A DNA stretch of 64,000 bases, from positions 199,950,001 through 200,014,000 of the forward strand of contig OZ024743.1 in assembly GCA_964016885.1 (NCBI GenBank), read 5' to 3'. Position numbers and translations under genes: made by a program. Positions 34,737-64,000 of the stretch are shown here, piece by piece; position 1 is the first letter of the stretch; the number at the start of each line of letters is the position of its first letter. The stretch comes from Eledone cirrhosa (Eukaryota). The notes under the pieces were generated by a model. That model was not told the origin of the DNA and searched no databases. It was given only the letters and a program-made list of their open reading frames with translations.

Positions 34737-34864
34737 ATATAGATGAGATTCTACAGGACTAGAACTGTTTCATTCTTTAGAAATCATCAGGAATCTGGCT
34801 GTCCAGATTCCTGATGATTTCTAAAGAATGAAACTGTTCTAGACCTGTAGAATCTCATCTATAT
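34737..34864. repeat. ~62-bp-arm hairpin between (TA)n tracts with CTGATGA...GAAAC
   Basis: Near-perfect inverted repeat with a CTGT loop; CTGATGA at 34811 and GAAA at 34830, but stem I is not convincing. Confidence 0.75.
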
Positions 34865-39394: not shown

Positions 39395-39946
<552 letters not shown>

Positions 39947-42900
39947 ATGAGCCGCCAGTGTCCGCGCATTGCCTGGAGACTTAACTGAGAATAGACTTCC
40001 TGATGACGCAATGAATTCTCGACAGTTGAATTACGTAACTGTCTTTATCCCATTGCAGAAACTAATTAGTTGGAGTGAAAATTTAAGTAAGAAAAAAATT
40101 TTTTTTAAATTTTTTTAAAAAAATATTTTTTTATTTTACGTCCTTTATATTATTGTTCTGCATTCTCCTGCATTGAACCACCTAGGTACTATGACATAAC
40201 CTGTGTATTTGCTGGCATGGGCGTGCATCTGTGCGCTTATGTTAGTTGATATATTAAATTATCTATATTTATCTCCAAATCACTGATTTGTCGAGCAAAC
40301 TTGTCAAAACCACTTCTAAAAAAATTTTTTTTGGGGTGTTAGTAGGCGTCAGTCATCTTACCATCCCATTCCTTCTAACTAGCCTCTGTGTCACGTGATT
40401 GATTCTTTAGAATCGGCCATTTGACTTGAAGCAGTGAGAATTTCGGTACATAGAATTCAGTCCTCGCAAGCTGTTCGATTTACCGAATTATTATTATTTT
40501 TATATGAGCCGCCAGTGTCCGCGCATTGCCTGGAGACTTAACTGAGAATAGACTTCCTGATGACGCAATGAATTCTCGACAGTTGAATTACGTAACTGTC
40601 TTTATCCCATTGCAGAAACTAATTAGTTGGAGTGAAAATTTAAGTAAGAAAAAAATTTTTTTTAAATTTTTTTAAAAAAATATTTTTTTATTTTACGTCC
40701 TTTATATTATTGTTCTGCATTCTCCTGCATTGAACCACCTAGGTACTATGACATAACCTGTGTATTTGCTGGCATGGGCGTGCATCTGTGCGCTTATGTT
40801 AGTTGATATATTAAATTATCTATATTTATCTCCAAATCACTGATTTGTCGAGCAAACTTGTCAAAACCACTTCTAAAAAAATTTTTTTTGGGGTGTTAGT
40901 AGGCGTCAGTCATCTTACCATCCCATTCCTTCTAACTAGCCTCTGTGTCACGTGATTGATTCTTTAGAATCGGCCATTTGACTTGAAGCAGTGAGAATTT
41001 CGGTACATAGAATTCAGTCCTCGCAAGCTGTTCGATTTACCGAATTATTATTATTTTTATATGAGCCGCCAGTGTCCGCGCATTGCCTGGAGACTTAACT
41101 GAGAATAGACTTCCTGATGACGCAATGAATTCTCGACAGTTGAATTACGTAACTGTCTTTATCCCATTGCAGAAACTAATTAGTTGGAGTGAAAATTTAA
41201 GTAAGAAAAAAATTTTTTTTAAATTTTTTTAAAAAAATATTTTTTTATTTTACGTCCTTTATATTATTGTTCTGCATTCTCCTGCATTGAACCACCTAGG
41301 TACTATGACATAACCTGTGTATTTGCTGGCATGGGCGTGCATCTGTGCGCTTATGTTAGTTGATATATTAAATTATCTATATTTATCTCCAAATCACTGA
41401 TTTGTCGAGCAAACTTGTCAAAACCACTTCTAAAAAAATTTTTTTTGGGGTGTTAGTAGGCGTCAGTCATCTTACCATCCCATTCCTTCTAACTAGCCTC
41501 TGTGTCACGTGATTGATTCTTTAGAATCGGCCATTTGACTTGAAGCAGTGAGAATTTCGGTACATAGAATTCAGTCCTCGCAAGCTGTTCGATTTACCGA
41601 ATTATTATTATTTTTATATGAGCCGCCAGTGTCCGCGCATTGCCTGGAGACTTAACTGAGAATAGACTTCCTGATGACGCAATGAATTCTCGACAGTTGA
41701 ATTACGTAACTGTCTTTATCCCATTGCAGAAACTAATTAGTTGGAGTGAAAATTTAAGTAAGAAAAAAATTTTTTTTAAATTTTTTTAAAAAAATATTTT
41801 TTTATTTTACGTCCTTTATATTATTGTTCTGCATTCTCCTGCATTGAACCACCTAGGTACTATGACATAACCTGTGTATTTGCTGGCATGGGCGTGCATC
41901 TGTGCGCTTATGTTAGTTGATATATTAAATTATCTATATTTATCTCCAAATCACTGATTTGTCGAGCAAACTTGTCAAAACCACTTCTAAAAAAATTTTT
42001 TTTGGGGTGTTAGTAGGCGTCAGTCATCTTACCATCCCATTCCTTCTAACTAGCCTCTGTGTCACGTGATTGATTCTTTAGAATCGGCCATTTGACTTGA
42101 AGCAGTGAGAATTTCGGTACATAGAATTCAGTCCTCGCAAGCTGTTCGATTTACCGAATTATTATTATTTTTATATGAGCCGCCAGTGTCCGCGCATTGC
42201 CTGGAGACTTAACTGAGAATAGACTTCCTGATGACGCAATGAATTCTCGACAGTTGAATTACGTAACTGTCTTTATCCCATTGCAGAAACTAATTAGTTG
42301 GAGTGAAAATTTAAGTAAGAAAAAAATTTTTTTTAAATTTTTTTAAAAAAATATTTTTTTATTTTACGTCCTTTATATTATTGTTCTGCATTCTCCTGCA
42401 TTGAACCACCTAGGTACTATGACATAACCTGTGTATTTGCTGGCATGGGCGTGCATCTGTGCGCTTATGTTAGTTGATATATTAAATTATCTATATTTAT
42501 CTCCAAATCACTGATTTGTCGAGCAAACTTGTCAAAACCACTTCTAAAAAAATTTTTTTTGGGGTGTTAGTAGGCGTCAGTCATCTTACCATCCCATTCC
42601 TTCTAACTAGCCTCTGTGTCACGTGATTGATTCTTTAGAATCGGCCATTTGACTTGAAGCAGTGAGAATTTCGGTACATAGAATTCAGTCCTCGCAAGCT
42701 GTTCGATTTACCGAATTATTATTATTTTTATATGAGCCGCCAGTGTCCGCGCATTGCCTGGAGACTTAACTGAGAATAGACTTCCTGATGACGCAATGAA
42801 TTCTCGACAGTTGAATTACGTAACTGTCTTTATCCCATTGCAGAAACTAATTAGTTGGAGTGAAAATTTAAGTAAGAAAAAAATTTTTTTTAAATTTTTT

Positions 42901-43485
42901 TAAAAAAATATTTTTTTATTTTACGTCCTTTATATTATTGTTCTGCATTCTCCTGCATTGAACCACCTAGGTACTATGACATAACCTGTGTATTTGCTGG
43001 CATGGGCGTGCATCTGTGCGCTTATGTTAGTTGATATATTAAATTATCTATATTTATCTCCAAATCACTGATTTGTCGAGCAAACTTGTCAAAACCACTT
43101 CTAAAAAAATTTTTTTTGGGGTGTTAGTAGGCGTCAGTCATCTTACCATCCCATTCCTTCTAACTAGCCTCTGTGTCACGTGATTGATTCTTTAGAATCG
43201 GCCATTTGACTTGAAGCAGTGAGAATTTCGGTACATAGAATTCAGTCCTCGCAAGCTGTTCGATTTACCGAATTATTATTATTTTTATATGAGCCGCCAG
43301 TGTCCGCGCATTGCCTGGAGACTTAACTGAGAATAGACTTCCTGATGACGCAATGAATTCTCGACAGTTGAATTACGTAACTGTCTTTATCCCATTGCAG
43401 AAACTAATTAGTTGGAGTGAAAATTTAAGTAAGAAAAAAATTTTTTTAAATTTTTTTAAAAAAATATTTTTTTATTTTACGTCCT

Positions 43486-43490
<5 letters not shown>
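39947..43490 (+). mobile_element. Tandem array of 557-bp HHR-bearing units (retrozyme-like), 6 full plus 1 partial
   Basis: ATGAGCCGCCAGTG recurs at 39947, 40504, 41061, 41618, 42175, 42732 and 43289. Units look identical by eye; the array ends at (TA)n. Confidence 0.9.
39995..40076 (+). ncRNA. Type I hammerhead ribozyme (also at 40552, 41109, 41666, 42223, 42780, 43337)
   Basis: ACTTC-CTGATGA-c[GCAATG...GACAGTT..AACTGTC...CATTGC]a-GAAA-CTAATTAG-TT-GGAGT. Stem I is ACTTC/GGAGT, stem III is the palindrome ACTAATTAGT; predicted cut after 40071. Supported by covariation with 53176-53257. Confidence 0.85.
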
Positions 43491-52862: not shown

Positions 52863-53310
52863 AGAGAATTAGTATATTAGATATACTAATTCTCTATATT
52901 TATCTCCAAATTATTTGTTGAGCAAAACTTGCCGAAATTTACTGCTATGGTTCATGGTAGTAGTTAGGCTCTTGTCATAATACCACCCCACTCCTCACTG
53001 ATTAACCTCAGTGTCACGTGATTGATTCTTTAGAATTTTCCACTGACCAAGTAGGCAGAGAATTTTTCAGTGCCCTGGAATCTAGTCCCCGCTAGCTTTT
53101 TTCCATCCACTGAATTATTATTTTTATATGGGTTCCTAGTGTCCGCGCATTACCTGGGAACCTAGCTGAGAATAGACTCCCTGATGACGTAAGGACTTCT
53201 CTATAGTTGCGTTGCGTAACTATATTTATTCCCTTACAGAAACTAATTAGTTGGAGTGAAAATTTTAGTAAGTAAGTTAATTTTTAAAATTTTCTTATTT
53301 TACGTCTTTC
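52863..53310 (+). mobile_element. Diverged sub-monomer relative of the 557-bp HHR unit
   Basis: Colinear blocks CTATATTTATCTCCAAA, GTGTCACGTGATTGATTCTTTAGAAT, AGTGTCCGCGCATT, the HHR and TTATTTTACGTC; short 5' inversion at 52863-52895. Confidence 0.88.
53176..53257 (+). ncRNA. Type I hammerhead ribozyme, diverged family member
   Basis: ACTCC-CTGATGA-c[GTAAGG...TATAGTT..AACTATA...CCTTAC]a-GAAA-CTAATTAG-TT-GGAGT. Confidence 0.85.
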
Positions 53311-54308
53311 ATGTGCGTGTGTGTGTGTGTGTGTTCTTCCTCCTGCTTGACGAGGCTGGGGTCATCTTAAATCAATGATCACAGAAGTATGTGACCAGAA
53401 GCCTCTACGTAGAATAGAACACAGCATCTCTCGAATAGCGTGCGAGTGCGTTAACTATTATGCCAAGAGGTATGTATGGTCCCGTAACTCTTGATAGAGT
53501 CGTAAGGGCGCCGTATGGACATACGGCGTTTCTGGAGCATTTTAAGTCTGGCGGAGCCCATCCCTCTCCAGGCAGATTTCTTCCAGAGAAAGATAGAGTG
53601 TGAGAGAGAGGAAATGGGAAAGAGACATAGAGGAAGAATCCACCCCAGTACTAGACTGGTACTTTTTTATCGACCTGGAAAGGGTGAAAGGCAAAGTTGA
53701 CCTCAGAGAGCAGAAAGCCGCAACGAATACCATAAAGCATTCTATCCGACGTTCTAACGACTCTGCCAATTCGCCTAAACTAGGAGGTACCTGATTGCTA
53801 AATAAAGGCGGTATACTAAAGAGCTTGTGGTTAGACCCGGAAGTAAATCAATCAATGAATTTTTGAAGGGCTCTGATGATTTGAAATTTGAAAACGTTAG
53901 ATTCCCAAACTCAGAAAATAACTGTAATAAAAATCGATTGCTATAAATAATAGTTTAGAAAATATGGTAAATATAACCCTATAGAATCTATAGATGGAAA
54001 TAATATGCGCTTAGAATATCAAGAAAAATACCAGTGTGGACGGTAAAAAGGGCCTGCAGCTACGGAAAATCAAATGCCTGGTTTCTCACACAATGTGCAA
54101 GTGTTTGAAAGATAAGGAGTTCACTTCTACGTAGTGTTTGCTGCCCACATTTTTCCTTCTACAGTGGTGCCTTCTACAGTCTCGATATGTTAAGCTTATA
54201 TATTTTGGGATCGCTTGTTATTACAGCTATTTTCTGATCTTGGGTTTCGCACATTTTCGAATATACATGGACACACGCACACACACACACACATATATAT
54301 ATATGCAT

Positions 54309-59424: not shown

Positions 59425-62135
59425 CAGGAAGACCTAAAAAATAAAGTTAGAGAAACGATTTGGAGATACAAAATTTAAAACTTTAAACTCCAAATTACAC
59501 CAGTTGAAACAACAACTCACAGCTACAACAGAAAGACTAAAATATAAGTCAACAGCACATAAACGACAAGAGCTAAATAGATTGTTTGCCAGAGATCCTA
59601 AATCAGTTTATCGCAGCTTCGGTAGCAAAAGCTCAATCTCTGTAAATGACACCCCTTCAAAAGAACAGGTTGAGAGCTACTGGAGATCTGTATGGGAAAC
59701 GGATGACGGATTCAACAGACAAACTAATTGGCTAAAAGAACTGGAACAGGACTACTGCCAACATGTCCAGACAAAACAATATGAGAAAGATGGGTCAATA
59801 CTGGAAACAGCTCTACAGAAAATGTCGAATAGGAAATCACCAGGCCCAGACCTCATTACAGGATACTGGTTGAAGAATTTCACTTTCTATCGACAAGATC
59901 TCATACGGCTGTTTACAGAAACCATTAAAGGCACACAAGAACTGCCCAGATGGTTATCAACTGCCACTACTCTCCTCATTCTCCAAAATAGCCAAACTAC
60001 CCTTGCTAAAAATTATCGCCCAATAGCCTGCCAAAACATCATGTATAAATTATATACTGGGTGCCTTAACCTGTTCTTACAGGATCACTGTGCTACCAAC
60101 AACATCATAACACCTGAGCAAGCCGGTGGAAAGAGGGAGGTGTGGGGTTGCATAGATCACCTACTAACTAATAAAATGATTCAAGAAAAAACAACATAGA
60201 ATCGCTGAAACATGACTGTGGTGTGGCTGGACTATCAAAAAGCATTTGATAGTGTATCTCATGGGTGGATTGTTAAGGCTTTACAGTTAGCCAACGTCCC
60301 ACAACCACTGGTAGCTGCTGTTGAACGTCTAACCAAGAACTGGTACACCAATTTGATCCTTAGAGGTGAGAAGGAGCAAGTGAAGGCTGATAAGATACAT
60401 TACCAGAAGGGCATCTTTCAGGGTGATAGCTTGTCAGTGCTACTCGTCGTTCTCTCACTAATCCACTATCTTACCTACTCAGGAAACAAGGTGGACAAAG
60501 AAGTGGGTCCAGAAGTATCTCCCATCTTTTCTTTGTTGATGACCTGAAATTGTATGGGCCAAATATCAATGACATCAAGAAACAATTGGACCTCATTGCA
60601 CAATTTTCAACAGACATCAAAATGAAATTTGGTGAGTCCAAGTGTGCATATTTGGCAGTAAAACGTGGAAGAGCTGTGCCCTCCTCTAGAAATATAGAGA
60701 TGAACGGCCTGACAATACAACCTCTACAGTCAGGTGACAACTACAGATATCTTGGACAGGATGAGAATGTCAGATATGATGGACCCATAAATAAGGAGAG
60801 AACCAGAACTGAATACCTCAGAAGAGTAAAGAAAATATGGTCATCAGAATTGTCAGTGTACAACAAATACATTGCCCACAATACTTATGCTGTGCCAATT
60901 CTAACGCCAACATTTGGCCTGCTGAACAGGTCATTGCAAGAACTAAGTGAGATGGATTTTAGAACTCGCAAACTTCTCAGTGTTACTGGGAACTTTAACA
61001 TCAATGGTGATGTGGATAGGCTATACTTCTCACGCAAGGAAGGTGGCCGGGGTCTAAAATCCATATTAACATCATATGAGACCGGGATAGTAACACTGAA
61101 GCAACATCTTCAACAGAGGAAAAAGGTTGGCAACCATCTTGCCCAGGTTTATGAGCATGAACAAAAAAATATCATTAGAATAGCCACTGATCTGGAGGAG
61201 ACATATGGAATAAAGCCTGATATAAATCTCTCACCCAGAGAAATCGGAAGATCCTATTCAATGTTCAAACAAGATGAACAAATTGACCAATTTACAGAAA
61301 AAGCTGTGCATGGATACTTGAGACGTAAAACACAGACCATAGAGGGGATAAACCACTCAAAAAGCCTGGCATGGAGTTCCGACAAGTTTATGACATCACA
61401 CCTTGAGGGATATCTCTATGTAATACAGGAACAAGAACTCCCTACCAAATATCTGCTGCACAAAAGGGGAGGGCCATCAGCTGACAATAAATGTAGGCTA
61501 TGTAAAAAAAAGATCGAGGATGTAAGCCACATTGTTGCCAGCTGCGAAAGAATGTCATCTCGCTACTACCTCCCCATGAGACACGATGGGAACCATCTGG
61601 AACGCACTTCGGAAAACAAAATTAACAACAAACGAGGAAGAATATATTGAGACAGATGGCACTAAGGAATACTGGTGGAACCTGAAAATAAAAACTGCCA
61701 CCAAATTAAAGCACAACCGGCCTGATATTGTTGTTTGGGACCACACATTGAAAACGTGTTCTGTTATGGAGATCAGCTGCCCACTTGATGTAAACGTTGT
61801 CAGAAAAATACAGAAGAAGGAGGACATTTACGGACCATTGATGAGGAGTTTACAAATCCAGTATCCAAGATACACCTTTAGCTTCATACCCATCATTATT
61901 GGAGCTACGGGTTATATACCAACCCGCTTGGACCAAAGTATGACTGAACTTGGATTTGCGGACAAAGAGCGCAGTTCCCTAATTCATAGTCTACAAATGG
62001 CTGCGATAGCTGGCACCTTCAAAATTTGCAAAACATTCTTGCGATTCAAGGGATGACAATTTCTTTTCTTTTACAATCTTGCCACCAGGAAGGTGGCCGG
62101 TCAAAAAGATATACTCCAAATTAAGAGAAAGAGAT

Positions 62136-63331: not shown

Positions 63332-64000
<669 letters not shown>

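What the first reader, a model, noticed from the sequence alone, without database searches (positions are those of the whole stretch)
53161..53257. Covariation supports the ribozyme fold, a stem II extension and a possible pseudoknot
Array versus diverged copy: stem I ACTTC/GGAGT vs ACTCC/GGAGT; stem II GCAATG/CATTGC vs GTAAGG/CCTTAC (two compensatory pairs); inner hairpin GACAGTT/AACTGTC vs TATAGTT/AACTATA (two compensatory pairs). The core and ACTAATTAGT are invariant. Conserved GAGAAT just upstream of stem I is complementary to ATTCTC (array) or TTCTC (relative) in the stem II internal loop. That could be a pseudoknot replacing the usual loop 1-loop 2 contact (inference).
Basis: partly seen in the sequence, partly recalled or inferred. 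Interest (0 to 1): 0.85.

Follow-up and report, generated by a model that had tools for sequence, protein, structure and literature searches.

The report
Pseudoknotted hammerhead in 13,000-copy retrozyme family
A hammerhead-type RNA motif, likely self-cutting, sits in each unit of a 480-570-base protein-less repeat with about 13,000 genomic copies, and matched base changes between subfamilies show an elongated second stem and point to a likely five-to-seven-base long-range pairing that I did not find described for animal Penelope-type hammerheads and that would help the ribozyme fold.

Summary
The "diverged copy" is a member of a second high-copy subfamily. The motif is a type I, Penelope-type hammerhead in a non-coding 480-570 bp repeat; two core patterns give 10,744 and 2,825 genomic matches. 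Stems I, IIa and the extension IIb covary widely.

Its middle pair is G-C in most subfamilies and A-U in at least three lineages. Genome-wide, GAGAA goes with a non-matching loop in at most 351 of 9,436 matches, and GAAAA in at most 123 of 3,035. G-U intermediates form arrays.

Against it: independent events are too few for a tree-based test (p 0.06-0.125); purine/pyrimidine tracts also pair in slid registers; one common subfamily breaks a pair; and in the window's group the same strand can also pair with two U-tracts. No RNA or cleavage data were available.

Stem I-stem II pseudoknots are known in hammerheads. I did not find this internal-loop form described for animal Penelope/retrozyme hammerheads, and Rfam misses it. 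Verdict: new variant of a known kind.

The parts
52878..53311 (+). Single, 5'-incomplete copy of the non-coding repeat unit (subfamily B), between (GA)n and (TG)n microsatellites; boundaries approximate
53119..53174 (+). Upstream hairpin P0 (core about 53129-53164); its base U-tract can also pair with the GAGAA strand
   Evidence: prediction; some covariation in the core, none at the base
53168..53172 (+). Pseudoknot 5' strand (GAGAA), 13 nt before the core
53176..53180 (+). Stem I, 5' strand
53181..53188 (+). Core CUGAUGA plus the extra nucleotide typical of Penelope-type hammerheads
   Evidence: PMC4209133
53189..53194 (+). Stem IIa 5' strand (pairs 53232-53237)
   Evidence: 99.3% of cells paired, one column with four pair types
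53197..53201 (+). Pseudoknot 3' strand (UUCUC), 5' side of the stem II internal loop, abutting IIb
53202..53224 (+). Stem II extension hairpin IIb
   Evidence: 5 of 6 pairs with two-sided change
53225..53238 (+). U-rich 3' side of the internal loop, stem IIa 3' strand and extra A
53239..53252 (+). GAAA core, palindromic stem III (53242-53251) and predicted cleavage site after U53252 (GUU)
   Evidence: cleavage inferred
53253..53257 (+). Stem I, 3' strand
39946..43490 (+). Tandem array of subfamily A, 557-bp unit, seven ribozyme copies, in (TA)n
39559..39946 (-). Inverted, 5'-truncated copy at the start of the array, with one ribozyme

Best explanation
This is a type I hammerhead motif in the unit of a high-copy, protein-less repeat that is likely a retrozyme moved by Penelope-like retroelements, and its transcript is predicted to fold with an extended stem II whose internal loop likely base-pairs with a 5-7-nt purine strand just upstream of stem I, which would hold stems I and II side by side for cutting. 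Shown: the sequence anatomy, copy numbers, tandem and inverted arrangement, covariation of stems I, IIa and IIb, and matched G-C/A-U states of the long-range pair. Inferred: the pairing forms in RNA and stacks on IIb; it takes the place of the non-Watson-Crick loop 1-loop 2 contact and offsets the missing pair at the base of stem II; because stem III is a weak palindrome, two neighbouring copies cut as a dimer, each pre-folded by its own pseudoknot (both strands lie on the non-cleaved side); cutting releases unit-length RNAs that are copied back into (TA)n sites by a Penelope-type enzyme acting in trans.
For: Copy number: 10,744 and 2,825 matches, controls 0 and 5. Units of the two groups are homologous over their length and 482-571 bp long. 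Helix covariation. Pseudoknot: five pairs intact in 23 of 23 group I representatives, middle pair G-C 19 / A-U 4; first 100 listed GAGAA matches all have UUCUC, 94 of the first 100 GAAAA matches have UUUUC; off-diagonals at most 351 of 9,436 and 123 of 3,035. G-U wobble versions occur in at least 10 loci, several as multi-copy arrays. A run of 5 or more Watson-Crick pairs in 50 of 59 representatives, mean 5.49 versus 4.26 when partners are permuted (0 of 20,000), control windows 3-10 of 59. With pseudoknot columns masked, A-U rows do not form one clade. The downstream rival pairing is absent in 26 of 27 group II representatives while the pseudoknot stays in 25 of 27. Stem III is a perfect palindrome in 43 of 59, in seven different sequences; hairpin +1.5 versus duplex -9.0 kcal/mol. 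Inverted 5' copy and microsatellite targets match Penelope-like insertions (PMC8557442 passages). Base-paired stem I-II contacts raise the cleavage rate in other hammerheads (PMC3088659 passages).
Against: Independent contrasts: 4-5 concordant, 0 discordant, sign test p 0.06-0.125, and that tree included two lone copies. One apparent extra event is a decayed single copy (its subfamily: 68 G-C, 1 G-U, 2 A-C, 0 A-U of 71), leaving about 3-4 family-level events. In group II, slid registers pair almost as well (80-83% versus 86%) and two have a higher covariation score (the alignment is one column off for 7 of 18 rows). G-to-A and C-to-U are the commonest mutations. A common subfamily (F3) has an A-G mismatch in the helix, and smaller ones lose an end pair. 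In group I the strand can also pair downstream (90.5% of cells, one compensatory pair) or with the P0 base, which RNAalifold prefers (it cannot predict pseudoknots). Six representatives of two other long-stem-II hammerhead families in this genome show no such pairing. No autonomous partner was found, and no cleavage was measured.
Confidence: 0.72

Rival explanations
1. The GAGAA strand pairs only in ordinary secondary structure (distal stem I with the downstream U-tract, or the base of hairpin P0), and the match to the stem II loop is a by-product of purine-rich and pyrimidine-rich tracts inherited together.
For: Group I distal stem I: 90.5% of cells paired, one U-A to A-U change; consensus folding puts GAGAA on the upstream U-tract; slid registers score almost as well in group II; few independent events.
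Against: Neither U-tract changes with the G/A switch, whereas the loop letter does; downstream pairing of 5 or more in only 1 of 27 group II representatives; native partners beat permuted ones, which keep the tract composition; G-U arrays exist.
Confidence: 0.13
2. All pairings are real and alternate: during transcription P0 captures GAGAA (off state), and the stem II loop later takes it over (on state), so the strand acts as a folding switch that delays or gates cutting.
For: A hairpin directly upstream of the strand is predicted in most representatives of both groups, often extending over the strand; its core has two-sided changes; the U-tract is nearly invariant in group I.
Against: The P0 base shows no compensatory change and uses two G-U pairs; U-tracts pair with any purine run; the extension is not predicted in several representatives. 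This is compatible with the best explanation rather than exclusive of it.
Confidence: 0.25
3. The structure, including the long-range pair, is kept for recognition by the Penelope protein or for circle formation rather than for cleavage rate; the ribozyme may cut little in vivo.
For: Penelope-type hammerheads are slow in vitro (PMC4209133); cleavage was not needed for transposition in vitro and no cut ends were seen in RNA-seq for an Anolis element (PMC11167929 passages); the base of stem II is unpaired in 41 of 59 representatives and the site is GUU in 27 of 59.
Against: Core boxes, A15.1-U16.1 and an NUH site are kept across subfamilies (my search patterns required most of these, so this is partly circular); the pairing sits where the known stem I-II contact sits.
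Confidence: 0.12

Closest known systems
Minimal type I hammerheads of metazoan Penelope-like elements (Cervera and de la Pena 2014, PMC4209133; parts 1-2 of 4 read, one of two supplement files searched)
   Same: Type I, short helix I, longer helix II, extra nucleotide after A9, palindromic helix III, many subfamilies per genome.
   Different: [quoted passage not shown]
Non-LTR retrozymes (Cervera and de la Pena 2020, PMC7229834, passages; Li et al. bioRxiv 10.64898/2026.07.22.740005, part 1 and passages)
   Same: Non-coding AT-rich tandem units each with a type I hammerhead; monomers to multimers; thousands of copies.
   Different: Units are longer (482-571 bp versus about 220-390 in the examples read); the hammerhead is of the Penelope type; circular RNA is not shown here. 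The mussel retrozyme was noted to lack the usual loop contacts; its figure was not visible to me.
Pseudoknotted hammerheads (Perreault et al. 2011, PMC3088659; passages and one section)
   Same: Base pairing between the stem I periphery and the strand continuing from the 5' side of stem II; predicted in about 40% of hammerheads of all three types, including the human C10 ribozyme; shown to raise the rate.
   Different: There the partner is a terminal loop or free tail; here it is one side of an internal loop closed by another hairpin, in a dimer-type retroelement ribozyme.
Type III hammerheads of toad and termite HDV-like RNAs and insect genomes (PMC7936874, passages)
   Same: 5-bp first stem I, 6-bp stem II, Watson-Crick contact involving an internal loop.
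   Different: Type III; the internal loop is in helix I and pairs with a terminal loop 2, the mirror image of this case.
Crystallised PK hammerhead (Zhan et al. 2024, PMC11300833, passages)
   Same: Hammerhead with a pseudoknot.
   Different: There the pseudoknot replaces helix II; here helix II is intact, so it is a different architecture.

Membership tests
Type I hammerhead ribozyme | CUGANGA, GAAA and NUH around a three-helix junction, helix I open | tested here: met
   (GUA 31, GUU 27, AUA 1 of 59)
Type I hammerhead ribozyme | Self-cleavage at the predicted site | not testable with these tools
   needs an in vitro assay or RNA ends
Rfam hammerhead families | Score at or above the gathering threshold | tested here: not met
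   no match in the window; no hammerhead family among 6 matches up to E 10
Canonical metazoan type I hammerhead | 4-bp helix II with a short terminal loop 2 and a base pair directly after A9 | tested here: not met
   6-7-bp IIa, internal loop and IIb; first stem II position pairable in 18 of 59
Penelope-type minimal hammerhead | Extra nucleotide after A9, short helix I, long helix II, palindromic helix III | tested here: met
   (43 of 59 perfect palindromes)
Penelope-type minimal hammerhead | Lies in the pseudo-LTR of an RT/GIY-YIG-coding element | tested here: inconclusive
   Penelope-like fragments lie near some copies but none is continuous with the unit; 1 of 29 loci of one endonuclease family carried it, as an insertion
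Non-LTR retrozyme | Non-coding tandem units, each with a type I hammerhead, dispersed in many copies | tested here: met
Non-LTR retrozyme | Expressed as unit-length linear or circular RNA | tested here: inconclusive
   only contig data could be laid
Pseudoknot-stabilised hammerheads (Perreault type) | [quoted passage not shown] | tested here: met
Pseudoknot-stabilised hammerheads (Perreault type) | Rate falls on disruption and returns on compensation | not testable with these tools
   bench test
Naiad elements with 'HHR_half_core' | Motif present in the Naiad consensus | tested here: not met
   group I stem III motif absent from the whole supplement; Naiad_Ovul read in full shows another arrangement

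The most novel reading that the evidence does not exclude
Animal Penelope-type hammerheads are not all 'minimal': an old lineage that fills this genome uses a Watson-Crick contact into an internal loop of a long stem II, gated by a competing upstream hairpin, so that a dimeric ribozyme is switched on only after refolding. Such long-insert forms are invisible to Rfam here and may escape short-loop descriptors, so they could be widespread and could explain why trimmed Penelope ribozymes look slow in vitro.
Probability: 0.25. Interest if true: 0.78.

Novelty: new variant of a known kind. Interest (0 to 1): 0.55.

Why it matters
Penelope-type hammerheads are reported as lacking recognisable tertiary contacts and as slow, and their role is an open question. 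This family offers about 13,000 copies and dozens of natural subfamilies, including G-C, G-U, A-U and mismatch states of one long-range pair. That is a ready series for testing whether a peripheral pairing speeds a dimeric hammerhead and whether it matters for amplification. It also shows a hammerhead form that Rfam does not detect. The principle (pseudoknot between stems I and II) and the host (retrozyme) are both known, which caps the interest.

Tried and rejected
Rfam: no hammerhead hit.

One search used a structure string with my column error for the pseudoknot and IIb; those rows are discarded, and the count was redone on the two groups separately.

F1c as an independent compensatory event: rejected.

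Helix-length compensation (offset of the two strands from the core): rho 0.16, p 0.25 on 56 of 59 rows; rho 0.62, p 0.014 on 15 hand-picked lineages, lost (p 0.56) without three distant ones. Inconclusive.

Showing that the A-U lineage arose from the G-U one: tree of 55 copies too poorly resolved.

Link to Naiad elements: not supported. Autonomous partner through one endonuclease family: 1 of 29 loci examined (30 fetched), an insertion.

Expression: no RNA holder listed; four runs laid were contigs, and the one guessed to be RNA gave nothing; this says nothing either way.

Other taxa: 38 metagenome and 5 viral pattern hits, 0 of 43 pass my stem I/II filter.

Literature searches for the motif found no description of it. 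Lunse et al. 2016 (PMC5785218) is not held; the supplement of PMC7229834 and one file of PMC4209133 could not be read, and figures are not visible. Any of these could show this architecture.

Distant candidates J and K (4-9-nt pairings, six single copies) are suggestive only; K has alternative pairings inside stem II.

Full report
Setting. The window is G000:C4:199950001-200014000 of a 3.0-Gb, microsatellite-rich animal genome. Size and repeat make-up suggest an octopus; that label is recalled and untested.

Observation. The array is a 557-bp unit with seven ribozyme copies, an inverted truncated copy at its 5' end and (TA)n on both sides. The 53181 copy belongs to another subfamily with 2,095 first-look candidates; the array subfamily has 862. 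Between these two sequences IIa and IIb each have two compensatory pairs, stem I has a one-sided change, and the proposed pseudoknot has no change in five pairs and loses the sixth.

Family size. Core plus the window's stem III gives 10,744 matches, reversed control 0 (group I). A second stem III pattern gives 2,825, control 5 (group II; by my reading 95 of the first 100 listed belong to the subfamilies studied). Units are 482-571 bp in most arrays, and groups I and II share blocks along the whole unit. Contigs of two other coded organisms carry related copies, and one run joins unit end to unit start. Rfam finds no hammerhead.

Secondary structure. I chose representatives by hand from about 220 fetched loci to span the subfamilies. 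In 23 group I rows IIa is paired in 99.3% of cells, one column showing four pair types, and IIb in 87.6% with two-sided changes in 5 of 6 pairs; slid controls give 34-53%. In 18 group II rows all 7 IIa pairs and 3 of 5 stem I pairs change on both sides. RNAalifold on 18 longer rows recovers the three-way junction, IIa, IIb and an upstream hairpin P0. Stem III is a perfect palindrome in 43 of 59 rows, in seven sequences; the first stem II position can pair in only 18 of 59; the site is GUA 31, GUU 27, AUA 1. The stem III hairpin costs +1.5 kcal/mol and the intermolecular duplex gives -9.0, which points to dimeric cutting as described for Penelope-type hammerheads (PMC4209133).

Pseudoknot, for. 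Seen states (upstream/loop): GAGAA/UUCUC, GAAAA/UUUUC, GGAAA/UUUCC, with a sixth pair that is U-A, G-C or A-U in different subfamilies. In group I five pairs hold in 23 of 23 rows, the middle one G-C in 19 and A-U in 4. Genome-wide, GAGAA before the core is followed by TT(C/G/T)TC in 9,436 places, of which 351 read TTTTC; GAAAA in 3,035, of which 123 read TTCTC (controls 2-22). These off-diagonals are upper bounds. Of 17 hand-picked G-U-list loci, 10 were true wobbles (several as arrays), 6 still had UUCUC in another register and 1 was not parsed. Of 3 A-C-list loci, 2 mostly kept GAGAA and 1 was another subfamily. In 59 representatives the longest Watson-Crick run between the upstream window and the loop window is 5 or more in 50, mean 5.49 against 4.26 +/- 0.15 for permuted partners (0 of 20,000); at the level of 13 lineages that I defined p is about 5e-6; three control windows reach 5 in 9, 3 and 10 of 59. 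These permutations ignore relatedness. On a tree of 53 rows with the pseudoknot masked, A-U rows are rejected as one clade and sit nested in G-C clades in both groups.

Pseudoknot, against. Independent contrasts are 4-5 concordant and 0 discordant, p 0.06-0.125. One of them rests on a lone decayed copy (68 G-C, 1 G-U, 2 A-C, 0 A-U among 71 of its subfamily), so about 3-4 family-level events remain. In group II slid registers pair at 80-83% against 86%. Subfamily F3, common, has an A-G mismatch in the helix; smaller groups lose an end pair. Six rows from two other long-stem-II families show runs of only 2-4, so the contact belongs to this lineage, not to every long stem II. In group I the strand has two other possible partners: the downstream U-tract (90.5% paired, one compensatory pair; runs of 5 or more in 19 of 25, mean duplex -3.0 versus -5.5 kcal/mol for the pseudoknot) and the base of P0. 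Neither changes with the G/A switch, and the downstream one is present in only 1 of 27 group II rows against 25 of 27 for the pseudoknot.

Mechanism. Most likely the pairing ties the stem I periphery to the strand leaving stem IIa, stacks on IIb and holds the helices parallel. This is inferred from its position, which is that of the rate-raising pseudoknot of Perreault et al. (PMC3088659). Both strands lie on the non-cleaved side, so the contact would form in monomer or dimer. Tandem copies would supply partners, release unit RNAs and be copied by a Penelope-type enzyme in trans; the inverted 5' copy and microsatellite targets fit that (PMC8557442). No autonomous partner was found. A switch role for P0 is possible but lacks covariation at its base.

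Comparison and novelty. Retrozymes (PMC7229834; bioRxiv 10.64898/2026.07.22.740005), Penelope-type minimal hammerheads (PMC4209133) and stem I-II pseudoknots (PMC3088659, about 40% of hammerheads; PMC7936874 for a mirror-image type III case) are known; the crystallised PK hammerhead (PMC11300833) is a different fold. Eight literature searches did not show this internal-loop form in animal Penelope or retrozyme hammerheads. Lunse et al. 2016, two supplement files and all figures were not visible. PMC6765202, PMC10085705 and PMC11167929 were seen as passages. Earlier scan notes list other pseudoknotted hammerheads in Penelope-like repeats (unchecked), which suggests the theme recurs.

Verdict. 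Observation confirmed; fold and extension about 0.95; pseudoknot about 0.8; full mechanism 0.72. New variant of a known kind, interest 0.55.

Noticed in passing
Supplement of PMC8557442: consensus just before Naiad-3_Nbra, and one in part 13: By eye, two Naiad consensus sequences look like non-circularly permuted hammerheads (stem III 3' strand, cut site and stem I 3' strand lie inside loop II), and both have an 8-12-nt upstream segment complementary to the 5' side of loop II. Naiads are reported to lack canonical hammerheads; rearranged hammerheads are described in PMC10085705 from other sources.
   Followed up: no
window:53265-53277 and the same place in groups I, D, F, G, J: A splice-donor-like site (AG/GTA or A/GTAAGT) sits 13-20 nt after the predicted cut site in most subfamilies; Penelope elements carry introns near their repeats.
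   Followed up: no
window:53011-53030 and 40387-40406: A block with a CACGTG palindrome is nearly invariant in group I units about 160 nt before the core; a possible promoter element.
   Followed up: no
window:53311, 43487, 39559; L188, L200, L205, L206, L212, L218: Insertions end at two preferred places, about 60 and about 190 nt after the cut site, each running into a microsatellite.
   Followed up: partly
L086, L109, L123, L133, L135, L137, L141, L064, L114, L156, L164: At least six further hammerhead families (short stem II with 6- or 8-nt palindromic stem III, and long stem II without this pairing) turned up in flanks, so the genome is very rich in them.
   Followed up: partly
L132, L133, L142 (subfamily F3): A successful subfamily with long identical arrays carries an A-G mismatch inside the proposed pseudoknot; a natural test case.
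   Followed up: partly
window:6440-15456: About 9 kb of (TTG/TGG)n with extreme strand skew.
   Followed up: no
window:32698-33510 and around 34750-34860: A 366-bp inverted repeat (98%) and a smaller fold-back element.
   Followed up: no
window:19199-20401 (-), 59438-61647 (+), 63442-63999 (-): Open frames that look like non-LTR reverse-transcriptase fragments (label by eye).
   Followed up: no
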